This document shows positions 16,201 to 60,783 of a stretch of DNA of 64,000 bases, piece by piece. The position numbers were made by a program, and so were the translations under genes. Source of the DNA: an uncultured Anaerolineales bacterium (GTDB lineage: Bacteria > Chloroflexota > Anaerolineae > B4-G1 > SLSP01). The notes under the pieces are model-generated. The model saw only the letters and a program-made list of their open reading frames with translations, was not told where the DNA came from and ran no database searches. The stretch's first letter is position 1; each line of letters begins with the position of its first letter. The stretch spans positions 23,328 through 87,327 of the forward strand of contig CAZDDI010000004.1 in NCBI GenBank assembly GCA_964504195.1. Reading direction: 5' to 3'.

Positions 16201-16496
16201 TCTACGCCCTCAAGCACGGGTTGGAGGAAACGGATACCTTCAGCCGCTTGGAGCGGCTCTCGACGCTGGGCGTGCTGCAAGAGGAGAGCTATCGGGGCAT
16301 CTACCAGGCGTACAGCCACCTGATGCAGCTGCGCTACCAGCATCAAGTGGCGTTGCTCAAGGCGGGGCGCGAGCCGGACAACGCCATTGATCCGCGTGCG
16401 CTCACGCAGATCGAGGTGGGCATCCTCAAGAATACCTTCGCGCAGATCTCGGCGATCCAGAAGAAGGTGGGGTACGATTTCCGCGCGGGGGGGTGA
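13275..16496 (+). CDS. Multidomain sensor: PHP phosphoesterase - TM - sCache_2 - TM - PAS - CBS pair - DUF294 nucleotidyltransferase
   Basis: PHP: VDLHCHSDASRDG, TDH, AHP. Cache: YFWITD...PWGWIIGTGLYEDD. CBS pair. NTase: ALGSEARQEQTLATDQDNAL. TATAAT lies 8 nt before the ATG, so the mRNA may be leaderless. Confidence 0.8.
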   Translation: MNTQAATRREPVVLVDLHCHSDASRDGTYTPSAVADFLAAAGVVYAALTDHQTVAGLFPFHAAAALHGMAEFAGAELHATLDEQELHLLAYGFEPTSPALQRVLGVIPPVEQTIAAVHQAGGIVFLAHPLQYGWSEREMEAVADRLARAGLDGLEAFYKPYPLETQERLTALADRLGLLTCGGSDYHGPQHSPGVEMPIARWKQFREALGDPARNGQPAPARPDEAESAESTAPVNWRGLLLQIVLPALLVIGVFVILLFGVLIPTMQQRLLDRKRDMAVQLTNSAWSILWEYHREAQAGRLSLEQAQQEAIERVRGLRYGPESKDYFWITDLHPRMVMHPYLPDLEGADLSDFTDPEGVRPFVEFVAVVRNDASGFVRYVWQWQDDPDRLEPKESYVRGFAPWGWIIGTGLYEDDVRQEIAVITQRMVDASFIVTALATGLLLLIAYQSLKLERRRSAAEQALRLSHERYRALVESATSGTLLLLNGRCTYANTTLLEMLGYTAAELAFFDIQDIVLVDAEGAAADHLQRILSGGEVRAPFEARLKRKNGRTVPVLLSATAVFFSGRQGMILSVQDLTQHRAMQSAAERDRLISQLQTSSLFLTEPVGDSMAPPLTCALDTPIARAVRQMSRNDADAIIVTTAEGEPVGMMSDHDIRKRVVAVGLDAQLPVSRIMSAPLVTISENAPLFEAFLLERECNVRHLAVTDSGGALVGIIQSSRALQPDRYSLVAFTHRIRRAQRVGELVECYRDLPALVGALVEAGALPQNICHVTTSVSDAITERVITLALEELGTPPVPFAFVALGSEARQEQTLATDQDNALIYADPPPDAPDVAAYFLRLGEFVCDALDRIGYRYCKGGTMAKNPRWNQPLSRWKQYVAEWIAEPDEQALAHCNIFFDHRCVYGDRSLVSAWWEHIAHIVAARPAFFSYMALKTLQYKPPLGLFGRIVTGADGAAPNTFNIKEAMLPIINFARLYALKHGLEETDTFSRLERLSTLGVLQEESYRGIYQAYSHLMQLRYQHQVALLKAGREPDNAIDPRALTQIEVGILKNTFAQISAIQKKVGYDFRAGG

Positions 16497-16510
16497 GGGC
16501 GGGGAATTTG

Positions 16511-16548
16511 TAGCTTGCTCTATGCAAGTTTTGCATAATCCACAACCT
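16511..16548 (+). promoter_or_regulatory. Predicted sigma70-like promoter (TTGCAT-N15/16-TATAAT) with palindromic operator TATGCAAgttTTGCATA, driving the low-GC island
   Basis: Seen in sequence immediately upstream of the ATPase gene. Confidence 0.45.
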
Positions 16549-16592
16549 GTATATAATCATAGTTATGTTTTTTGCAAAATAGGCGGATCAAG

Positions 16593-17630
16593 ATGGCGAT
16601 ACAAAAATTACAGCTGAAAGAGTTTACAGCTTTTGAGGAAGCTGAATTTTCCTTTTGTCCGGGCATTAACGTGCTTATTGGCGCAAACTCTACCGGCAAA
16701 ACGCATGTATTGAAAGCTATGTACACTTTACTCAAAGTGTGCGAACGGGCTGAACTCGATAAAATCGCTGATCCTGACAAGCTCAATGATATATTGAGTA
16801 ATAAACTTATGGGTGTATTCAAACCCGATACAGTCGGACGATTACGACGGCGCGGGCGAGGACGCGGCACAGGTATAATTACTCTGGATTATGACGATAT
16901 TCCATTGACTGCAGCTATTAGCACACAAAACAATGTTCATCTTGAATACAAGCACCTTCCCACACCGCAACCTTCTGTTTATTTGCCGGTTCACGAATTC
17001 GTTTCCGTTTACCCAGGATTCATTGCTGCTTATAGCAAACGGGAAACAGCTTTTGATGAGACATATTTCGATTTGAGTATTGCCTTAAATGCGACTTTGC
17101 TGCAGCCTGGAGCGCGCCAGACCAAGATTGATGAATTAGTAAAACCATTGGAAAGTGCAATCGGAGGCAAAATCACTCAAGAGAATGGGCGTTTCTATTT
17201 CAAATTAGGGGGAAAATTTGAAGCTCCGCTCGTTGCAGAGGGCTATCGCAAACTAGGGGGGTTAATCTATCTCATCCTCAACGGCTCCCTGACACAAAAC
17301 GGCATCCTATTCTGGGATGAACCAGAAGCCAATCTCAATCCCAACCTGGTAACTGTAGTTACCAAGATGCTACAAATTCTGGCAAATTCTGGAATCCAGA
17401 TCTTCATCGCTACCCACGATTACCTGCTGAGCCAAGAATTATCACTCGTCGCAGAATACGAACCAGAAACCGTAAATATGCGCTTTTTTGCACTACACAA
17501 ACCCAATCGGCGCACAGGCGGGGTGGCGGTAGAAACAGGCGCATCCCTGGTCGAAATAGAACATAACCCCATCCTGGCCGAATTTGCCGCGCATTATGAC
17601 CGGGAAGCACGCCGTTTCCAACAAGCCTAG
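16593..17630 (+). CDS. ABC-type ATPase of the AAA_15/AAA_21 (OLD/RecF-like) family
   Basis: Walker A GANSTGKT; Walker B/D-loop ILFWDEPEANLNP; H-loop IFIATHD. Low-GC context. ORF-track start at 16572 is TTG; ATG at 16593 is preferred. Confidence 0.8.
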   Translation: MAIQKLQLKEFTAFEEAEFSFCPGINVLIGANSTGKTHVLKAMYTLLKVCERAELDKIADPDKLNDILSNKLMGVFKPDTVGRLRRRGRGRGTGIITLDYDDIPLTAAISTQNNVHLEYKHLPTPQPSVYLPVHEFVSVYPGFIAAYSKRETAFDETYFDLSIALNATLLQPGARQTKIDELVKPLESAIGGKITQENGRFYFKLGGKFEAPLVAEGYRKLGGLIYLILNGSLTQNGILFWDEPEANLNPNLVTVVTKMLQILANSGIQIFIATHDYLLSQELSLVAEYEPETVNMRFFALHKPNRRTGGVAVETGASLVEIEHNPILAEFAAHYDREARRFQQA

Positions 17631-17645
17631 CCCAGGAACGCCGCG

Positions 17646-18206
17646 ATGTCACACATTTTTCCCGAAGACCGCCTTGAGTTTTGTTTTTCCGATGCGTGGC
17701 ATGTTATCAAGTTTGATGAATGCCCAGAATATCAACGCTTGGCGCAAGAAAGCGGGAAGCAGAATTTGCCCGGAACAAAAGGGGTGGATTTTGTAGGAAT
17801 TTGGAATGAGGTGCTATATTTCATCGAAGTCAAGGATTTCCGCACCTATCGCATTGAAAATCGGCCCAGGTTAGAAGAGGGAACGTTAGCGATCGAGCTG
17901 GGGCAAAAAGTGCGCAGCTCCATTGCCTGTCTGATCGGATTCTATCGCACATCACCGACGCCCGAACTCTGGACCCCCTTTGCGCACTTGTTATGCACGT
18001 CCACGCGGCGCATCAAGGTTGTGCTCTGGTTAGAACACGAGCTACCCCTGCATCCTGTTATGCAGCGCAAAGCCTTGAATTCACTACATATCAAAAATTT
18101 CAAACCCCGCTTGCAGTGGATCACCCCGTATGTGTTCATATCGAACCAGGAGACCAATGTCCTTACCGGCGTCGAGGTGCATAACTTGCCACATCCCCAA
18201 TTATAA
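17646..18206 (+). CDS. Small hypothetical protein with PD-(D/E)xK-like motif (GVDFVGIW...FIEVKDF); putative nuclease effector
   Basis: Sits 16 nt downstream of the ATPase stop, so operonic; D-x13-E-x-K spacing. Confidence 0.5.
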   Translation: MSHIFPEDRLEFCFSDAWHVIKFDECPEYQRLAQESGKQNLPGTKGVDFVGIWNEVLYFIEVKDFRTYRIENRPRLEEGTLAIELGQKVRSSIACLIGFYRTSPTPELWTPFAHLLCTSTRRIKVVLWLEHELPLHPVMQRKALNSLHIKNFKPRLQWITPYVFISNQETNVLTGVEVHNLPHPQL

Positions 18207-18235
18207 ATGCCGCTTACCATACAGAGGGAAGTACA

Positions 18236-18472
18236 ATGTCAACCAACATGAACTCACAGGCACCAAATTCTGGCCTGCTGCAAGAAGCTCAGGCGCGTTT
18301 GCACAACTTATCGCCAGGACGCTTGCGCGTCGCCAATGATTTTCTGACCTATTTGCAGGAACGGGAAGAAAACGAAGCTACGCAGGAACTATTGGAGATT
18401 CCAGGTTTTCTATCCGCATTTCACCAGGCCACAGCGCAGGCAGAGACGGGTGAGACAAAGGTGATCCAATGA
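18236..18472 (+). CDS. Small hypothetical protein (78 aa), antitoxin-like (DUF2281-like C-terminus)
   Basis: RBS GAGGGA; LRVANDFLTYLQEREENE. Confidence 0.45.
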   Translation: MSTNMNSQAPNSGLLQEAQARLHNLSPGRLRVANDFLTYLQEREENEATQELLEIPGFLSAFHQATAQAETGETKVIQ

Positions 18473-18511
18473 ATACACCATACCCCGTTAGGCAGTACCG
18501 GAGGTAATACC

Positions 18512-18874
18512 ATGATTGAGGCGACCTTCTTCGATTGCTGTGAAGTGCGCATGGGATCTCCCTCCGAGGTCTGCTCGCTACGGCTGCAGGGGTCCTGGTT
18601 ACCTCCTGGCCTTAATGAGCAGAGGGAGTGGGTCAGGGTCTCGGCCAGCAATAGGGACAGGAGCTTGCTTGCACTGGCGCGTTGGGATATCCAAGAGAAT
18701 GCACCCGGCTTTCGCTTGCTCGTCATTGACACACACAACAAAAGCGTCACTGAATCCCATAGGCTGGAAGGGTGCTGCGAGAGTTTAGCATTCGAAGAAG
18801 GTAAACTTATATGGCATTCTTTTGGTCTTTCGGAGTCGGGGCATTCCGGTGTCCTTGAGCTAGCCACCACCTAG
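18512..18874 (+). CDS. Hypothetical protein (120 aa)
   Basis: RBS GGAGGT 9 nt upstream; no family recognised. Confidence 0.45.
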   Translation: MIEATFFDCCEVRMGSPSEVCSLRLQGSWLPPGLNEQREWVRVSASNRDRSLLALARWDIQENAPGFRLLVIDTHNKSVTESHRLEGCCESLAFEEGKLIWHSFGLSESGHSGVLELATT

Positions 18875-18949
18875 CGAGAACAAAATTCTGCCACTTAACA
18901 GTCTTTCGCACAAACCTTGAGCCGTTCTCAGAAATATAAGACAGGTTCA

Positions 18950-18995
18950 AAAACAAACAGGCCCGCATCTTCAAAGATGCGGGCCTGTTTGCTAA
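18950..18995. terminator. Bidirectional intrinsic terminator (aggcccgcatc-ttcaaa-gatgcgggcct) between convergent genes
   Basis: 11-bp perfect stem; T-rich on minus side (tttgtttttg). Confidence 0.6.
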
Positions 18996-19007
18996 ACGAT
19001 TTGTAAC

Positions 19008-21098
19008 CTATGCTTGCACAACTACCGGCTGTTTCTTCGCCGTGAGCAGCGAGACCACCACCAGCACGATGAAGCTCAGCGGGATAGAGACGATGCCAGG
19101 CTGGTTAATGGGCATGGGCGCGGTGGCCGGGTTGAGGCCGTAGCGCGCCCACATATCGGGGCTGAGCATGATGAGTGTCACGGAGGCGACAATCCCGGTC
19201 AAAATGGAGGCGATCATCCCCGGCGCGGTAGCCTTCTTCCAGAACAACATCAGCAGCAGCGCGGGCAGATTGGCCGAGGCAGCCACGGCAAACGCCCACC
19301 CCACCAGGAACGAGACGTTCATATCGCGGAAGGCGATGCCCAGCACGATGCCAATGATACCCACCACCACCGCCACGATCCGCCCGGCCTGCACTTTGGC
19401 AGTATCGGAGAACTCCCGCCGGAACAGATTGCCCATCAGATCGTGCGCCACCGCGCCCGAAGCGGCCATAATCAGGCCGGAGACTGTCGCCAACACGGTA
19501 GTGAAGGCAATGCCGGAGATCATCGCAAAGAGCACCTCGCCGAAGCTGCGGGCCAACAGCGGCGCACTCATGTTGCTCGTCTCCGGATTCAGCGCGCCGC
19601 TCGCCACCGACCCCACCCCCAGGTACATCGTGAAGATGTAGAAGAGGCCGATACCCGCGATGGCGACGATGGTGGACTTGCGGGCCGCGTCGGCGCTGGG
19701 GACGGTATAATAGCGGATGAGGATATGCGGCAGCGCCGAGGTGCCGAGGAAGAGCGCCAGCATCAGCGAGATGAAGTTGAGCCGGTTGAGCAGCGTCGTC
19801 GAGGCCGGCTCGCCAGGCTGCGCTTCCAGCGGGAACATCAGCCCCGAACGCATGAAGGTCGCGCCATCCAGCGGTACCTCGTAGTGAATGGTGATACGCT
19901 CGCCAGCATCGGTGGTGAAGGCGACATTGCGCGGACGCTGCACGACCGTATCCTCATCCGCAAACACGCTCAGCAAGCGCAATGGATCGAGCGGGCCAGT
20001 ACGCTCGCCATACGCAGCGGGCAGTTGGGAAACGCCGCCCATCTGCCGGAGCCGATTGGTGAGCACCTCCGGCGCGCCGTTGACCAGCGCCGTCCCATCG
20101 GGCAGCACGGCGCGATACTGCGTCTCCACCAGGCGCATCGCGCCATCCGCGCCGGTCTCCAGTCGCCACCAATCCTCGATGCGGATAAAGGGCCGCCCTT
20201 CGACCTGCTCCAACGCCCAGCCGACGGCCGGCCCGGAAGCGGTGTGGAAGTGCGGCGTGCGCCCTTTGATGCTGGCGGTGTAGCCATCGCCGCCCTCGGC
20301 AATCGCCGGGATCAGCCGCGAGATACGATAGAAGACGATGCTCTCCGCGCCCGTGTAGCGATCCACAACCGCGTGTCGTCCCACCACGCGCGCGCCGGGC
20401 AAATCCACCATGAGCGTGTCGCCGCTGCGTTCAGCCGCGATGGTGGCGTAGCGATAGGCCTCCAATCCCGCCACACCCTCCTCCATCGGACGGTCCGTCA
20501 CACTCACGCCACGCAGCAGGATAGCGATTGTGAGCACCGCAGCAAAAAGCAGCAGCAGCCCGCCGTTGAAGAATTGCACCCAAGTCGTGGAGGTCATCCC
20601 GCCGCCGGCCACAATGAAGATGACCACCGCGCCGACGATGATGACGCCCCAGTGGTGCGGAATCCCCAGCAGCGGCTCTACCAGCACGCCCGCACCCACC
20701 ATCTGCGGCACGAGGTAGAAGAGCGAAACCACCAGCACACTCAATCCAGCGGCCAGCTGGATGCCCGGACTCTTGAAGGTGCTGTTGAGAGCATCGGGAA
20801 AGGTGAACGTCCCCCGCCGCTTCATCGGCTCAGCAATCACGAAGAGGGCCACAATCCACCCTGCGAGAAAACCGATGGAGTAGAGGAAGCCATCGTAGCC
20901 AAAAAAGGCGATAAGACCCGCAATGCCCAGGAAGCTCGCCACGGAGAGATAGCCGCCAGCAAACGCGACACCGTTGACCGTCCACGGCACAGAGCTGTTG
21001 GCGACAAAATAGCCGCCCACACCGCGCGCCCGGCGGCTCGTATAAGAGGAAATCGCCAACACCACACCTACAAAGATGAAGAAAACTACAATTGCCAT
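19008..21098 (-). CDS. Sodium:solute symporter family transporter (ActP-like cation/acetate symporter) with ~230-aa hydrophilic insertion
   Basis: SSS-family TM pattern; start overlaps upstream DUF485 stop. The 862-aa antisense ORF on the + strand is rejected. Confidence 0.75.
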   Translation of the reverse strand: MAIVVFFIFVGVVLAISSYTSRRARGVGGYFVANSSVPWTVNGVAFAGGYLSVASFLGIAGLIAFFGYDGFLYSIGFLAGWIVALFVIAEPMKRRGTFTFPDALNSTFKSPGIQLAAGLSVLVVSLFYLVPQMVGAGVLVEPLLGIPHHWGVIIVGAVVIFIVAGGGMTSTTWVQFFNGGLLLLFAAVLTIAILLRGVSVTDRPMEEGVAGLEAYRYATIAAERSGDTLMVDLPGARVVGRHAVVDRYTGAESIVFYRISRLIPAIAEGGDGYTASIKGRTPHFHTASGPAVGWALEQVEGRPFIRIEDWWRLETGADGAMRLVETQYRAVLPDGTALVNGAPEVLTNRLRQMGGVSQLPAAYGERTGPLDPLRLLSVFADEDTVVQRPRNVAFTTDAGERITIHYEVPLDGATFMRSGLMFPLEAQPGEPASTTLLNRLNFISLMLALFLGTSALPHILIRYYTVPSADAARKSTIVAIAGIGLFYIFTMYLGVGSVASGALNPETSNMSAPLLARSFGEVLFAMISGIAFTTVLATVSGLIMAASGAVAHDLMGNLFRREFSDTAKVQAGRIVAVVVGIIGIVLGIAFRDMNVSFLVGWAFAVAASANLPALLLMLFWKKATAPGMIASILTGIVASVTLIMLSPDMWARYGLNPATAPMPINQPGIVSIPLSFIVLVVVSLLTAKKQPVVVQA

Positions 21099-21389: not shown

Positions 21390-21639
21390 AGGAACCTCCT
21401 GGTTACGCGAGTATGGGATAGCGGTAGCTTTCCGTATGGTAGCATGATTCTGGGAAGATACAAACGCAGATTAACAACAAAACTAACGCCAAGGCTTTAC
21501 ACCGATAAGCCAAGTCCTGTACTTGCCAAAACAGGTAGTAACTACTCAATCTTGTCATTACGAGCCACGTCTCCGTGGTGTCCGTTGTCAAGCGACAATT
21601 AGAAATGCCCATATCAGAGGGCAAAACCTCAGCGGCCTG

Positions 21640-21765
21640 GGGAGGGGGCGAAGAATAACGGTTTTTTTGGGCGGCGGCTTCGCCGCCGCCCAAAAAAACC
21701 ACAAAAAAAATCCCCCCTTTCCCCCGCAAGCGGGGGAAAGGGGGCAGAGGGATAGGGGGTATCAT
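21640..21765 (-). ncRNA. GC-rich tandem-hairpin element, copy 1 (hairpin A + U8 + hairpin B); candidate structured RNA or terminator
   Basis: ccctttcccccgc/gcgggggaaaggg + tttttttt + gggcggcgg cttc ccgccgccc; structural homologue at 61546-61735 with compensatory stem changes. Confidence 0.4.
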
Positions 21766-21994
21766 TTTATTTTTAGAACGACCAACTTGACACAAAACCT
21801 TATTTACAGATTAATTTCTTAAAATTTATAAGCGCATCGCTAATATCATCTATGGCGAGCCATGTCATTAAGTTAAGACCCGGCAGGTTTCGCTTACATT
21901 GTGTTTGACCGCATTTTCCAGGTAAATAAAAGGGGGAGTGTAGCGTCAAACCTCTCAAACCTGCCAGATCTGTGTGCTAAACTTAATAACACTG

Positions 21995-23557
21995 CTATGG
22001 TGACCAAACCCAGGTGTCCATACCGTTGAAATAGCGGAGCAACGTGCGAGGTGCAGTGGTCGTGTACCAAGCTATCTCGCGCTCCCCTACTTCCACACGC
22101 CAGGCATCCTGCGAACCAAACGTGGTCTCCACCGCCTCGACACCGATAACTTTGACCAGCATCGTTTCCAGCACTGGGCCGCTATCTTGCGTTGCCTGGC
22201 GCCATACATTTGGCGACAGGTGTAGCAACCGGGCGGTAACGCCCTCTTCAAAAGTGAGTGCCGCCAGCTGCCAGGGCCAAATACCGCTAGCTGTGACAAG
22301 CGTATCCTGCGCCAACAAGGGCAACGGCTCCACCCAAGTCTCCATTTCCGCGTCTGCATGGGTGGCCTCAACAGTGATTGCTTGCTCAGCCAACATCCAC
22401 TGTATCACCTGCGCTTCAAAGTCGGATAGATCTAACAACGGCGCGTAGCTCTCCCGATCCCAACGCACCATACGTTCCCCCACAAGCGCCTGGCTGTACC
22501 AATAACTGCGCTCCACCTGCACTTCGTATTCCTGCTGATCCTGCCAACAGGTCAGGGTAACGGCCTGTGTCTCTGGTGCGAGTGTGCAGGTCGCCTCGCC
22601 AATGGGATCGTCAATGACGTTGTAAATCTGATAGTGCCACGTTTGTGTCTCAACCCAGGGCAGCGGATTGAGGACCACAGGCTGGGCAAACAGCTCCGGC
22701 GAATAGCCAACAAAAACCTCTAGCCCGATGAAAATGAGCCAGATCGGCAAAGCAGCCAGTAAAGGCCAACTGCGCGCCAACCAACCGCGCTCTGTAACCG
22801 GTGCATCTGGAGGCGGTGCGGGGCGCGTGAGGCGGACAAGCAACCCCAGCGATAGCAACACCAACCCGAGACCGGCAATCGCTGTGGGAAACGCCAGAAT
22901 CACCTCCCCCGCTGATTGAATCCACACACGTTGAGTAATCACCAGCGCGGCTAACACATTGGCTCCGAAGTGTGTGAGCATGGAAGCGGGAAGGGAGGCA
23001 GTGCGCCAATAGACAAATCCAAGCACCAGCACCAGGGGTATAATGCTCAAGCCCTGTAGCAATGCGAGATGAAAGGCCATGAACAATAGCCCTACGAAGA
23101 GAATAACCCGCAGCGGCCCCCAATGGGCATAAGCATTTTGAACTATACCACGAAAAAGCACCTCCTCGCAGATGGGCGCCATCACGGCGAACGCCACGAA
23201 AGCCAGTAGGGCTTCAAAAGGCGTGCTAGGAATCAGCTCTGGCATCTCCGGCAAGGTGTAACCGAGGAGTGCCTGGTAAAGGTCGGCACTGTAAATTGCC
23301 AAAGGATACAGCCCCGCACCAATGACGAAACTCAAACCAGCGATTTTCCATCCCGGCCAGCGCCACTGTAGCGTCTCCCGCACCGGAAGCCCCGCCCAAC
23401 GCAGGTAAATAAACGCAGGCAGCAGAATAAACAACGCCTGGTTTAGAATCATACGCACATAGTTCGGCAGCCAAAAAAACAGCACGTTGCTCGCTTGAAG
23501 TCCGAGTACAATCAAGAGCAACAAATTAACATGGGATATAGAAGGTCTTTTCACCAT
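21995..23557 (-). CDS. CPBP-family intramembrane metalloprotease (CAAX protease-like) with long C-terminal soluble domain
   Basis: EEVLFRG, FxxxH, HxxxN motifs; start MVKRP with RBS AGGAG. Confidence 0.7.
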   Translation of the reverse strand: MVKRPSISHVNLLLLIVLGLQASNVLFFWLPNYVRMILNQALFILLPAFIYLRWAGLPVRETLQWRWPGWKIAGLSFVIGAGLYPLAIYSADLYQALLGYTLPEMPELIPSTPFEALLAFVAFAVMAPICEEVLFRGIVQNAYAHWGPLRVILFVGLLFMAFHLALLQGLSIIPLVLVLGFVYWRTASLPASMLTHFGANVLAALVITQRVWIQSAGEVILAFPTAIAGLGLVLLSLGLLVRLTRPAPPPDAPVTERGWLARSWPLLAALPIWLIFIGLEVFVGYSPELFAQPVVLNPLPWVETQTWHYQIYNVIDDPIGEATCTLAPETQAVTLTCWQDQQEYEVQVERSYWYSQALVGERMVRWDRESYAPLLDLSDFEAQVIQWMLAEQAITVEATHADAEMETWVEPLPLLAQDTLVTASGIWPWQLAALTFEEGVTARLLHLSPNVWRQATQDSGPVLETMLVKVIGVEAVETTFGSQDAWRVEVGEREIAWYTTTAPRTLLRYFNGMDTWVWSP

Positions 23558-23581: not shown

Positions 23582-23977
23582 TTACTCAGCGGCTTCTTGA
23601 ATCCAGGCATGAGCCTCTTCAAGATTCACAAACCACCGCACGGCCATCTCATCCTTCGAGCGTGCAGCATAATCAGTTTGCCCCATGCGCGTAAACTGAT
23701 CCTTGGGCACGATAAACGCCAGCTTCCGTATCCCCACCTCAAGCAATTGTGGATTCCCTACCTCTGCCAACCACCGCACATCTTCTGTAGCGACTTCTTT
23801 TTGCTCTCGCGTATCGCTGATGATTGCGTGTACTTCTTCTGTCTGCGCAAAGGCAATGGTTTTTTCGATAGACGCTCTAAAGTTTAATGATCCGGCATAC
23901 CCCTGCCAAATCTGAAGCACACAGTACGATTCAGGCATGTATTTGATAACACAATGGGACTTAAAATCAACAAGCAT
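23582..23977 (-). CDS. STAS/SpoIIAA-like domain protein
   Basis: C-terminal ...VNLEEAHAWI; ~130 aa. Confidence 0.45.
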   Translation of the reverse strand: MLVDFKSHCVIKYMPESYCVLQIWQGYAGSLNFRASIEKTIAFAQTEEVHAIISDTREQKEVATEDVRWLAEVGNPQLLEVGIRKLAFIVPKDQFTRMGQTDYAARSKDEMAVRWFVNLEEAHAWIQEAAE

Positions 23978-24201: not shown

Positions 24202-24726
24202 TTAAGAATCTCTCATCACAAACACCGCATACGCTGCGGGAATTTTGATGCCAAAGCACTGGCACAACAATTTGACATCGTGATAGTCGTTCTCGTCGAG
24301 CGGGTAGCCGGTGTGGAATTCTACCATCCATTCCGGGGTGATACAGCGCACCGGCTGGCCTGCGATGACGCCCTTGCCGCGCAAAGAGGCGGACGGATAC
24401 GGAACGCCAAAGGTAAGGTTGCCCTCTGCATCGAACGTGTATGAATGGAAGTCCACCAAATGGCCCTGATCGTCACCGAGCACGAAATTGCAGTCCCGCG
24501 TATCGTCACGCGGCACATCCTGGTAACCGCGCGCTTCGAGCAGAGCGCGCAGTTGCGGCACGTCCTTATGCTGCATGGCGATGTCCAGATCCGCGTGCGG
24601 GCGCGTCTGCTCACCGAGCAGCGCATCCACGCCCCACCCGCCATCAAGGATGATCTCGATGTCGTGTTCGACACAGAGCTGGAGCAGCTCAAGTACGTCT
24701 TGTGCGGTCATTTCAGGGTGTGGCAT
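24202..24726 (-). CDS. ANT(2'')-Ia-like nucleotidyltransferase (aminoglycoside/lincosamide nucleotidyltransferase family)
   Basis: GGWGVDALLGEQTRPHADLDIA and GVIAGQPVRCITPEW match ANT(2'') GGWAIDARLGRVTRKHDDIDL / GVIAGRPVRC. Confidence 0.7.
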   Translation of the reverse strand: MPHPEMTAQDVLELLQLCVEHDIEIILDGGWGVDALLGEQTRPHADLDIAMQHKDVPQLRALLEARGYQDVPRDDTRDCNFVLGDDQGHLVDFHSYTFDAEGNLTFGVPYPSASLRGKGVIAGQPVRCITPEWMVEFHTGYPLDENDYHDVKLLCQCFGIKIPAAYAVFVMRDS

Positions 24727-60215: not shown

Positions 60216-60515
60216 CTATGATTGCTCCACCAAACGCCCCGTAACATACTTGTGTAAAACGCTTGCCATAAGCGTTTGATAAGGCAACCCTTCTTCCATA
60301 GCACGCAACTGCAAACCCACCAAATCTTTCTCAGATAGCCGGATATTCACCCGCCGATCTTTCCGAAAAGTCGCGCGCGCGTATTCCTGATATCTGGTTT
60401 GTTCCTCCGGCAAATCAGTAACAGATTCCCATTCATCCGCGTCATACGATGTCAGCAAAGCAACTTCTTCGCTATCCAATTTATACGTTGGCATGAGTCT
60501 ATTTCTCCTTTCCAA
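60216..60515 (-). CDS. brnA: BrnA-like antitoxin (RHH/CopG family)
   Basis: DSEEVALLTSYDADEWESV...RVNIRLSEKDLVGLQLRAMEEGLPYQTLMASVLHKYVTG. Confidence 0.7.
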   Translation of the reverse strand: MERRNRLMPTYKLDSEEVALLTSYDADEWESVTDLPEEQTRYQEYARATFRKDRRVNIRLSEKDLVGLQLRAMEEGLPYQTLMASVLHKYVTGRLVEQS

Positions 60516-60783
60516 AATACTTTCGAGTGGCCTTCCGACTTGGGATAATGGTTTTCAGAAATACTTCGGTCTCTGACTCCACAAATGGCACCAAATAGGC
60601 ATAATTAGCTACTGCCACAATAAAAATACGTTGTCTCGGATATTGTACAGGATTAGGGTGTGCGACTATATCCAGCAAGCCACCGGTTTCAATGTGATAG
60701 ACGATCTGCTCAAAAGAAATATGGCGTTCTTCGCGTAATTGCTCGTTTTTCACAGGATTCCAAACAAAGTATTTCATACTCAT
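60499..60783 (-). CDS. brnT: BrnT-like toxin (DUF497 ribonuclease)
   Basis: FVWNPVKNEQLREERHISFEQI; overlaps brnA start. Confidence 0.7.
   Translation of the reverse strand: MSMKYFVWNPVKNEQLREERHISFEQIVYHIETGGLLDIVAHPNPVQYPRQRIFIVAVANYAYLVPFVESETEVFLKTIIPSRKATRKYFGKEK

What the first reader, a model, noticed from the sequence alone, without database searches (positions are those of the whole stretch)
16497..18950. Low-GC island carrying an ABC-ATPase + small PD-(D/E)xK-like protein: candidate uncharacterised defence or abortive-infection module
A ~2.4 kb block sits between convergent core genes and is visibly AT-richer than the surrounding DNA, at roughly 45-50% GC by eye against ~62% for the window. 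It has its own strong promoter (TTGCAT-N15-TATAAT with a TATGCAAgttTTGCATA operator palindrome) and ends in a bidirectional terminator. The first gene (16593-17630) is a compact ABC-type ATPase of the OLD/RecF-like AAA_15/AAA_21 kind, with Walker A GANSTGKT, Walker B/D-loop ILFWDEPEANLNP and H-loop IFIATHD. The second gene lies 16 nt downstream (17646-18206, 186 aa) and has a D-x13-E-V-K arrangement (GVDFVGIW...FIEVKDF) typical of a PD-(D/E)xK restriction-endonuclease-like fold. In the published Septu, PARIS, Gabija and class-1 OLD defence systems the ATPase gene is likewise followed by a nuclease effector gene, but the effector here is a much smaller and different protein. Two further small ORFs follow, a 78-aa antitoxin-like protein and a 120-aa protein with a good RBS. 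The atypical composition, insulated promoter and terminator, and ATPase-nuclease gene order together suggest a horizontally acquired and possibly undescribed defence system.
Basis: partly seen in the sequence, partly recalled or inferred. Interest (0 to 1): 0.8.

Follow-up and report, generated by a model that had tools for sequence, protein, structure and literature searches.

The report
HEC-02 phage-defence gene pair island
The low-GC island carries a two-gene ATPase-plus-nuclease module that belongs to an already named and laboratory-tested anti-phage system (HEC-02), so it is a new member of a known kind, not an undescribed system.

Summary
The stretch 16497-19007 has 48% GC against 59% for the rest of the window, and it lies between convergent core genes. 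It holds four ORFs.

The first two ORFs match the PADLOC HEC-02 models: the ATPase at E=6e-92 and the small protein at E=2e-23. They are 39% and 30% identical to the Dickeya dianthicola HEC-02 pair. Payne et al. (bioRxiv 2024) showed that this pair protects E. coli from phages and needs both genes.

ORF3 and ORF4 are not part of the system. ORF3 is a leftover antitoxin of a ParE-type toxin-antitoxin pair. A sister population (flank proteins 93-95% identical) has ORF3 at this site but lacks HEC-02. ORF4 belongs to an uncharacterised small-protein family that was found at no other HEC-02 locus. The hairpin terminator is also present in the sister population, so it was not imported with the island.

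Verdict: a horizontally acquired HEC-02 module in a variable hotspot; a new member of a known kind. How HEC-02 works is still unknown.

The parts
16500..18237 (+). Window-specific DNA segment 1: the imported HEC-02 operon with its own 5' region
   Evidence: Homology to the sister population L096 (flank proteins 95% and 93% identical) stops at 16499 and resumes at 18238. The Anaerolineae locus L004 is 71% identical in DNA over 16569-18193. GC is 43-51%.
16530..16557 (+). Promoter-like site (TTTGCA/TTGCAT -35, TATAAT -10), overlapping the 7+7 palindrome at 16521-16537. A second palindrome, TTTTGCAAAA, lies at 16570-16579.
   Evidence: Matches the consensus at 10 of 12 positions. A -10 element sits in the same position in L004, L005, L006, L011 and L018. 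TTTTTGCAAAA is shared with L004. The palindrome is only marginally unusual.
16593..17630 (+). HEC-02A: compact ABC ATPase (345 aa)
17646..18206 (+). HEC-02B: NERD/DUF6661-like PD-(D/E)xK protein (186 aa), the putative nuclease effector
18236..18472 (+). ORF3: orphan antitoxin homolog (ParD position). Resident at this site; not part of HEC-02.
   Evidence: An 82%-identical homolog in L088 overlaps a ParE_toxin gene (PF05016, E=2.5e-12). A 79%-identical homolog in L096 is followed by a ParE 3' remnant. ORF3 is similar to the 80-aa gene upstream of a ParE gene in Marithrix L093. No ParE-like sequence occurs in the window. ORF3 is absent from all 61 genome loci L004-L064.
18445..18949 (+). Window-specific DNA segment 2, carrying ORF4 (18512-18874, 120 aa, GGAGG ribosome-binding site). 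ORF4 belongs to an uncharacterised small-protein family.
   Evidence: This segment has no counterpart in L096 or L088. ORF4 has 138 representative homologs at E<=1e-3 and 50 at E<=1e-10. It has no match in Pfam, PADLOC, NCBIfam, PHROGs or the PDB. An HMM of the family finds it in none of the 92 fetched loci that come from other organisms (L004-L095).
18954..18991 (.). Perfect 18-bp hairpin between the convergent genes. It is the resident intrinsic terminator, with a T-run on the minus strand and TTTG on the plus strand.
   Evidence: -37 kcal/mol, z=-8.8. Inverted repeat I1. Conserved in L096 at 83% nt identity with a compensatory C-G to G-C change.

Best explanation
Genes 16593-17630 and 17646-18206 form a two-gene HEC-02 anti-phage system. 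HEC-02A is a compact ABC ATPase and HEC-02B is a NERD/DUF6661-type PD-(D/E)xK protein.

The operon, with its own promoter region, was inserted by horizontal transfer as a block of about 1.7 kb (16500-18237). The insertion site is a variable hotspot between two convergent core genes, directly upstream of a resident, decaying ParDE-type toxin-antitoxin locus.

Likely mechanism (inferred, not shown). The ATPase head dimerises on ATP, as SMC, Rad50 and PtuA heads do, and acts as sensor and switch. On a phage cue it licenses the tightly co-expressed PD-(D/E)xK partner to cut nucleic acid, which either aborts the infection or destroys the phage genome.

ORF3 is an orphan antitoxin and ORF4 belongs to an uncharacterised family. 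Both are neighbours, not components. The hairpin is the pre-existing terminator of the site.
For: Family membership. PADLOC gives HEC-02A at E=6.2e-92 and HEC-02B at E=2.2e-23. Every other ATPase-containing defence system scores 1e-20 or weaker. The ATPase is 39% identical over its full length to the tested Dickeya HEC-02A. The small protein is 30% identical to the tested HEC-02B, with hhalign probability 99.6%.

Experiment in the literature. HEC-02 reduced plaquing in E. coli and needed both genes (Fig. S3).

Catalytic residues. Walker A, Walker B, D-loop and H-loop are conserved in the ATPase. D48, E61 and K63 are invariant in the small protein.

Synteny. The ATPase gene lies directly upstream on the same strand in 58 of 61 loci spread over at least 8 phyla. 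The gaps are mostly -20 to +23 nt, and the two genes often overlap by 4 nt.

Defence context elsewhere. In L094 and L095 the pair is embedded between a type III methyltransferase and a restriction-helicase gene.

Acquisition. The island has the lowest GC in the window. The pair is absent from the sister population, whose flank proteins are 93-95% identical. The site is empty in L068 and L069, and carries an APH kinase gene in L066 and a ParDE pair in L088.
Against: No experiment exists for this locus or for its DUF6661-type clade. The tested homolog is only 30-39% identical.

No nuclease activity, trigger or A-B complex has been shown for any HEC-02, so the mechanism rests on analogy.

No mobility genes, direct repeats or terminal inverted repeats flank the block. 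How it was transferred is unknown.

The window holds no other defence system next to the pair, so there is no defence-island support at this locus.
Confidence: 0.85

Rival explanations
1. All four genes (ATPase, PD-(D/E)xK protein, 78-aa and 120-aa proteins) form one new four-gene defence or abortive-infection module.
For: The four ORFs share one strand and are closely spaced, in a single low-GC block between one promoter-like site and one hairpin.
Against: ORF3 and ORF4 are absent from all 61 other genome loci (L004-L064). ORF3 occurs at the same site without HEC-02 in L096, L097, L098 and L088. The island is a mosaic of three segments with separate histories. The tested HEC-02 works as a two-gene system.
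Confidence: 0.04
2. The pair belongs to another named ATPase-nuclease system (Septu, AbiL, PARIS, Gabija or class-1 OLD) and not to HEC-02.
Against: Those hits are 70 orders of magnitude weaker than the HEC-02A hit, and most cover only the N-terminal P-loop or the C-terminal Walker B segment. The partner protein has no HNH, TOPRIM or RloB/DUF4276 domain and hits only HEC-02 models.
Confidence: 0.03
3. The pair is a selfish addiction or toxin-antitoxin-like module, or a DNA-repair accessory of the RecF/SbcCD kind, with no role in phage defence.
For: Pfam describes AAA_21 as 'putative AbiEii toxin'. The ATPase fold is shared with RecF, Rad50 and SMC. The pair sits next to toxin-antitoxin remnants here and in Marithrix. 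In the closest relative (L090, L091) it stands alone among housekeeping genes.
Against: Its distribution is sporadic and lineage-independent, and it is absent from the sister population, which rules out a core repair role. The homologous Dickeya pair has measured anti-phage activity. It is embedded in a type III restriction-modification system in L094. The ATPase has no coiled-coil or Mre11-like partner.
Confidence: 0.06

Closest known systems
HEC-02 (Hma-embedded candidate 02; Payne et al., bioRxiv 10.1101/2024.01.29.577857; tested pair WP_024108366.1 and WP_024108365.1 from Dickeya dianthicola NCPPB 3534)
   Same: Two co-oriented adjacent genes. The first is an ABC ATPase of about 345 aa: full-length HMM match at E=6e-92 and 39% identity. 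The second is a NERD-like PD-(D/E)xK protein of about 170-190 aa with the same D...E-V-K motif: 30% identity and hhalign probability 99.6%.
   Different: The window pair belongs to a divergent clade found in Chloroflexota, sulfur bacteria, Planctomycetota and Myxococcota. Its B protein falls in Pfam DUF6661. Here the pair stands alone in a hotspot between core genes and is not embedded in an Hma or restriction-modification system. It is untested.
Septu and retron type I-A effectors (PtuA ABC ATPase plus PtuB HNH nuclease)
   Different: The partner is an HNH nuclease, not a PD-(D/E)xK protein. PtuA is larger (about 420-550 aa). Sequence similarity is limited to the P-loop and Walker B regions.
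PARIS (AriA-AriB), Gabija (GajA-GajB), class-1 OLD and AbiL
   Different: Their effectors are TOPRIM or RloB-type domains, or a UvrD helicase (GajB). No TOPRIM domain is present here.
Stand-alone or helicase-coupled PD-(D/E)xK defence effectors (Shedu SduA, Hachiman HamA, Can2/Card1, Upx)
   Different: These are regulated by helicases, cyclic nucleotides or their own N-terminal domains, not by an ABC ATPase. There is no detectable sequence similarity.
ParDE/RelBE-type type II toxin-antitoxin systems (for ORF3 only)
   Same: ORF3 homologs sit immediately upstream of, and overlap, a ParE_toxin gene in L088. L093 has a similar pairing.
   Different: In the window the toxin gene is gone and the C-terminus of ORF3 is truncated and altered. 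ORF3 matches no Pfam antitoxin family.

Membership tests
HEC-02 (PADLOC; Payne et al. 2024) | Component A is an ABC ATPase that matches the HEC-02A profile | tested here: met
HEC-02 (PADLOC; Payne et al. 2024) | Component B is a NERD-like PD-(D/E)xK protein that matches the HEC-02B profile and carries the (D/E/Q)xK motif | tested here: met
HEC-02 (PADLOC; Payne et al. 2024) | The two genes are adjacent and co-oriented as one cassette | tested here: met
   15-nt gap in the window. The same arrangement in 58 of 61 loci.
HEC-02 (PADLOC; Payne et al. 2024) | Protects against phage, and both genes are required | not testable with these tools
   Shown only for the Dickeya pair.
HEC-02 (PADLOC; Payne et al. 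2024) | Embedded in an Hma, BREX, DISARM or restriction-modification system. This is the discovery context, not a requirement; the authors counted non-embedded homologs. | tested here: not met
   In the window the pair lies between a sensor-nucleotidyltransferase gene and an SSF transporter gene. A family member is embedded in a type III restriction-modification system in L094 and L095.
Pfam NERD (PF08378) and DUF6661 (PF20366) | Score above the Pfam gathering threshold | tested here: inconclusive
   The window protein scores 15.5 bits on DUF6661 (cut-off 27) and does not hit NERD. Among 36 homologs, 31 hit DUF6661 (best E=5e-8) and 8 hit NERD (best E=1.3e-3).
Septu | PtuA ATPase plus PtuB HNH nuclease | tested here: not met
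   PtuA models reach only 1e-10 to 1e-11, on residues 1-48. No HNH domain is found in any of the four proteins.
AbiL, Gabija, PARIS and OLD | ATPase coupled to a TOPRIM or RloB (DUF4276) effector | tested here: not met
   Only weak partial ATPase hits (AbiLi 1.7e-13, GajA 1.5e-14, AriA 2.9e-20, Old 1.1e-12). No TOPRIM or RloB hit in any ORF.
ParDE/RelBE type II toxin-antitoxin (ORF3) | An antitoxin gene followed by a cognate ParE/RelE toxin gene | tested here: not met
   The toxin is present in L088 (PF05016, E=2.5e-12) and only as a remnant in L096. The window has no ParE-like sequence (tblastn). ORF3 is an orphan.

The most novel reading that the evidence does not exclude
ORF4 belongs to a conserved but wholly uncharacterised family of proteins of about 115 aa (motifs EIRMGSP, NxPGF, GCC; 138 representative clusters). 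In the window it has replaced the ParE toxin immediately downstream of the ParD-like antitoxin. ORF4 could be a new kind of toxin recruited to the orphan antitoxin by partner swapping in a toxin-antitoxin pair, or a new accessory or regulator of the adjacent HEC-02 system.
Probability: 0.08. Interest if true: 0.4.

Novelty: new member of a known kind. Interest (0 to 1): 0.22.

Why it matters
The direct value is modest. The locus extends HEC-02, a defence system tested once in an enterobacterial version, to a divergent DUF6661-type clade. That clade is widespread in Chloroflexota, large sulfur bacteria, Desulfobacterales, Planctomycetota, Myxococcota and Bacteroidota.

The locus is also a clean natural insertion. 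The sister population shows the site before the insertion, which delimits a self-contained unit of about 1.7 kb (promoter plus two genes) suitable for cloning.

The mechanism of HEC-02 is unknown: its trigger, its substrate, and whether it acts by abortive infection or by direct restriction. A compact pair that models with high confidence, like this one, would be a reasonable subject for structural and biochemical work. Nothing here would surprise a specialist.

Tried and rejected

2. A sequence search of the ATPase against the PDB gave only marginal PtuA hits, E>=1.7e-4. No HEC-02 structure has been solved.

3. NCBIfam has no family for any of the four proteins above its cut-offs. PHROGs has none for HEC-02B, ORF3 or ORF4.

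4. The word-index search made ORF4 look like an orphan. The full phmmer search corrected this, with 138 hits. I withdrew my earlier 'orphan' note.

5. I looked for phage or plasmid carriage. No relative of HEC-02B or ORF4 occurs in 2.9 million viral contigs. There is one weak plasmid hit, in Pseudanabaena.

6. I looked for mobility signatures and found no flanking direct repeats or terminal inverted repeats. No integrase or transposase gene is called next to the island.

7. The 'operator palindrome' is not statistically compelling and is not conserved.

8. The source organism could not be named. Exact-match cluster look-ups return no names. Chloroflexota is a guess, based on the nearest HEC-02 relatives.

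9. A literature search for DUF6661 or PF20366 found no paper. HEC-02 as a defence system appears in only one paper of the library.
Full report
**1. Observation**

The block 16497-19007 has 48.1% GC against 59.4% for the rest of the window. It is the lowest-GC 2.5-kb stretch in the 64 kb. Third-codon-position GC is 0.43-0.62 in the four ORFs against 0.81-0.86 in the flanking genes.

Minor corrections:
- The window average is 59% GC, not 62%.
- The nuclease motif is D-x12-E-V-K, not x13.
- The A-B gap is 15 nt, not 16.

A promoter-like site matching the consensus at 10 of 12 positions lies at 16530-16557. The region as a whole has no more such sites than shuffles do. The better support is comparative. 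The closest Chloroflexota relatives (L004, L005, L006, L011, L018) all carry a (G)TATAAT about 35-60 nt upstream of the ATPase start codon.

The 7+7 palindrome at 16521-16537 is real. However, 5.3% of shuffles of the region match it, and it is conserved only imperfectly in L004.

The hairpin at 18954-18991 is very stable: -37 kcal/mol, z = -8.8.

**2. What the first two genes are**

PADLOC profiles place the ATPase in HEC-02A (E=6.2e-92, full length) and the 186-aa protein in HEC-02B (E=2.2e-23). The next-best ATPase families (AriA, NsnB, GajA, AbiLi, Old, PtuA) score 1e-20 or weaker and match only part of the protein. Pfam gives AAA_15 and AAA_21 for the ATPase. For the small protein it gives only a sub-threshold DUF6661 hit.

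HEC-02 is described in Payne et al., bioRxiv 10.1101/2024.01.29.577857, as an ABC ATPase plus a NERD-like PD-(D/E)xK protein. It was found embedded in Hma systems. Expressed in E. coli, it reduced plaquing of several phages, and both genes were required (Fig. S3 legend). The tested pair comes from Dickeya dianthicola NCPPB 3534.

The window ATPase is 39% identical to the Dickeya ATPase over its full length (E=1e-72). The small protein is 30% identical to the available 133 residues of the Dickeya partner (E=1e-9). A profile of 36 homologs aligns to that partner with 99.6% probability, and the D...E-V-K motif is in register.

**3. Independent checks of the folds**

An alignment of 36 homologs of the small protein has these invariant residues: F14, W18, D24, D48, E61, K63, L81, E84, K88, L127, W128, L129 and E130.

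Of the 36 family members, 31 hit Pfam DUF6661 and 8 hit NERD weakly.

- Walker A (G30...G35-K36-T)
- a VAEGxRK signature-like motif
- Walker B and D-loop (LFWDEPEANLNP)
- H-loop (ATHD)

**4. Synteny and distribution**

A scan of one genome per species found 61 loci that encode a relative of the small protein. They come from Chloroflexota, Marithrix/Thiomargarita/Beggiatoa-type Gammaproteobacteria, Desulfobacterales, Planctomycetota, Myxococcota, Bacteroidota, Verrucomicrobiota and others.

In 58 of the 61 loci an ATPase homolog lies directly upstream on the same strand. Two of the three exceptions are cut off by a contig end. The A-B gaps are mostly -20 to +23 nt, and the genes often overlap by 4 nt. 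The ATPase family is large, with 4,838 clusters at E<=1e-20.

Contexts vary:
- Between an ABC transporter gene and rpsT in the nearest relative.
- Next to ThiF and PGM genes in Marithrix.
- Embedded between a type III methyltransferase (PADLOC E=4.9e-163) and a ResIII/type III restriction-like gene in L094 and L095. This is the 'embedded' context in which HEC-02 was discovered.

No relative was found in viral contigs.

**5. Anatomy and history of the island**

Relatives of the two flanking genes show that this intergenic site is a variable hotspot:
- It is empty (15-50 nt) in L068 and L069.
- It carries an APH-family kinase gene in L066.
- It carries a small antitoxin gene overlapping a ParE_toxin gene in L088.

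The most informative comparison is a sister population (L096, L097, L098) whose flank proteins are 95% and 93% identical to the window's. There the site holds only three things: an ORF3 homolog (79% identical), a 3' remnant of the ParE gene (...IIITIAHRSQVYR*), and the same hairpin. The hairpin is 83% identical in DNA and carries one compensatory C-G to G-C change.

Homology between the window and L096 covers 16300-16499, 18238-18444 and 18950-19200. The island is therefore a mosaic of four pieces:
- (a) 16500-18237: the imported HEC-02 operon with its promoter region. It is 71% identical in DNA to the Anaerolineae locus L004 over 16569-18193.
- (b) 18238-18444: the resident antitoxin gene.
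- (c) 18445-18949: a second window-specific segment carrying ORF4, in place of the ParE remnant.
- (d) The resident terminator hairpin.

No direct or inverted terminal repeats mark the junctions.

**6. ORF3 and ORF4**

ORF3 has no Pfam, PADLOC or NCBIfam family. Three observations identify it as an orphan ParD-position antitoxin:
- Its homologs sit in front of ParE genes.
- It resembles the gene upstream of a ParE gene in Marithrix (E=6e-8).
- The window contains no ParE-like sequence.

ORF4 looked like an orphan in the word-index search. A full phmmer scan of 1.84 billion representatives then found 138 homologs, 50 of them at E<=1e-10, mostly 100-130 aa long. They share the motifs EIRMGSP, NxPGF and GCC. 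ORF4 is therefore a real gene of an uncharacterised family. It has no Pfam, PDB or viral match. An HMM of the family finds it in none of the 92 fetched loci that come from other organisms (L004-L095). Neither ORF3 nor ORF4 travels with HEC-02.

**7. How it most likely works**

Shown here:
- The pair belongs to the HEC-02 family.
- Both catalytic motif sets are intact.
- The two genes are tightly coupled in one operon.
- The pair is sporadic in distribution and was acquired horizontally.

Shown in the literature: a homologous pair defends E. coli against phages, and both genes are needed.

Inferred by analogy with SMC, Rad50 and PtuA-type ABC heads, and with other ATPase-nuclease defence systems: the ATPase dimerises on ATP and acts as sensor and switch, and the PD-(D/E)xK partner is the nucleic-acid-cutting effector. 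The trigger, the substrate and the outcome (abortive infection or direct restriction) are unknown for every HEC-02.

**8. Comparison, novelty and score**

The pair meets every sequence-testable defining feature of HEC-02. It fails the defining features of Septu (no HNH) and of AbiL, Gabija, PARIS and OLD (no TOPRIM or RloB domain).

It is a new, divergent and untested member of a known kind. The four-gene and 'own terminator' claims are not supported.

Interest is low (0.22). The remaining value is a well-delimited, compact HEC-02 variant for mechanistic work. The small open question is the ORF4 family.

Noticed in passing
window 60216-60783 (-): Two overlapping small genes in a low-GC patch (41-46% GC). 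One is a 94-aa BrnT-like toxin (PF04365, E=8.8e-6, below the Pfam cut-off). The other is a 99-aa CopG/BrnA-like antitoxin (PF12441, E=7.3e-6). They probably form a second toxin-antitoxin islet.
   Followed up: partly
window 24202-24726 (-) and 23582-23977 (-): A 174-aa aminoglycoside-2''-adenylyltransferase-like nucleotidyltransferase (PF10706, E=7.8e-29). Next to it is a low-GC (48%) 131-aa ORF with no family.
   Followed up: partly
window 21390-22000; L001 against L003 downstream of the DUF485 gene: Contigs that carry the identical island differ just beyond the SSF-DUF485 genes. L001 continues with an Rce1-like gene and L003 with an MreB-like gene. This is either a second variable junction or an assembly chimera. 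The region is also low in GC.
   Followed up: no
PADLOC-DB models PDLC04145 and PDLC04146: The A and B labels of these HEC-02 models are swapped relative to the paper. PDLC04146, labelled 'HEC-02B', matches the ATPase (E=7.7e-85). PDLC04145, labelled 'HEC-02A', matches the small nuclease-like protein (E=4.3e-16).
   Followed up: no
L038 6914-10196 (Thiotrichaceae MAG): Two HEC-02-like ATPase-nuclease pairs lie in tandem on one contig.
   Followed up: no
L048 5490-7956; also L017, L031 and L047: In these loci the ATPase homolog is split into two separated tblastn segments. In L048 the segments are about 1.6 kb apart. This suggests disruption by an insertion or by frameshifts.
   Followed up: no
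L088 9239-10213: The homolog of the 1073-aa sensor gene is an internally deleted 324-aa version: PHP N-terminus, then CBS and part of DUF294, then the last 10 residues. The transporter gene is also fragmented. This is either a decaying locus or a misassembly.
   Followed up: no
L092 1-8537 (Candidatus Marithrix): A PFK-ThiF segment is duplicated on either side of an inserted block. The block carries MqsR/MqsA-like toxin-antitoxin genes and a 1108-aa PLD-SNF2 helicase that hits DrmD, BrxH and HmaA models. It lies immediately upstream of the HEC-02 pair.
   Followed up: partly
L096 11238-11430: In the sister population, the region upstream of the ORF3 homolog contains paired inverted repeats (TGGATTGTCAAATCCA and TGGATTTGACAATCCA). 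They may be the operator of the toxin-antitoxin pair. In the window this stretch has been replaced by the HEC-02 block.
   Followed up: no
window 16514-16579: Three elements built on TTGCA/TGCAA lie upstream of the ATPase gene: CTTGC...GCAAG, TATGCAAgttTTGCATA and TTTTGCAAAA. L004 keeps the last of these. They might be regulator half-sites, but this is unproven.
   Followed up: partly
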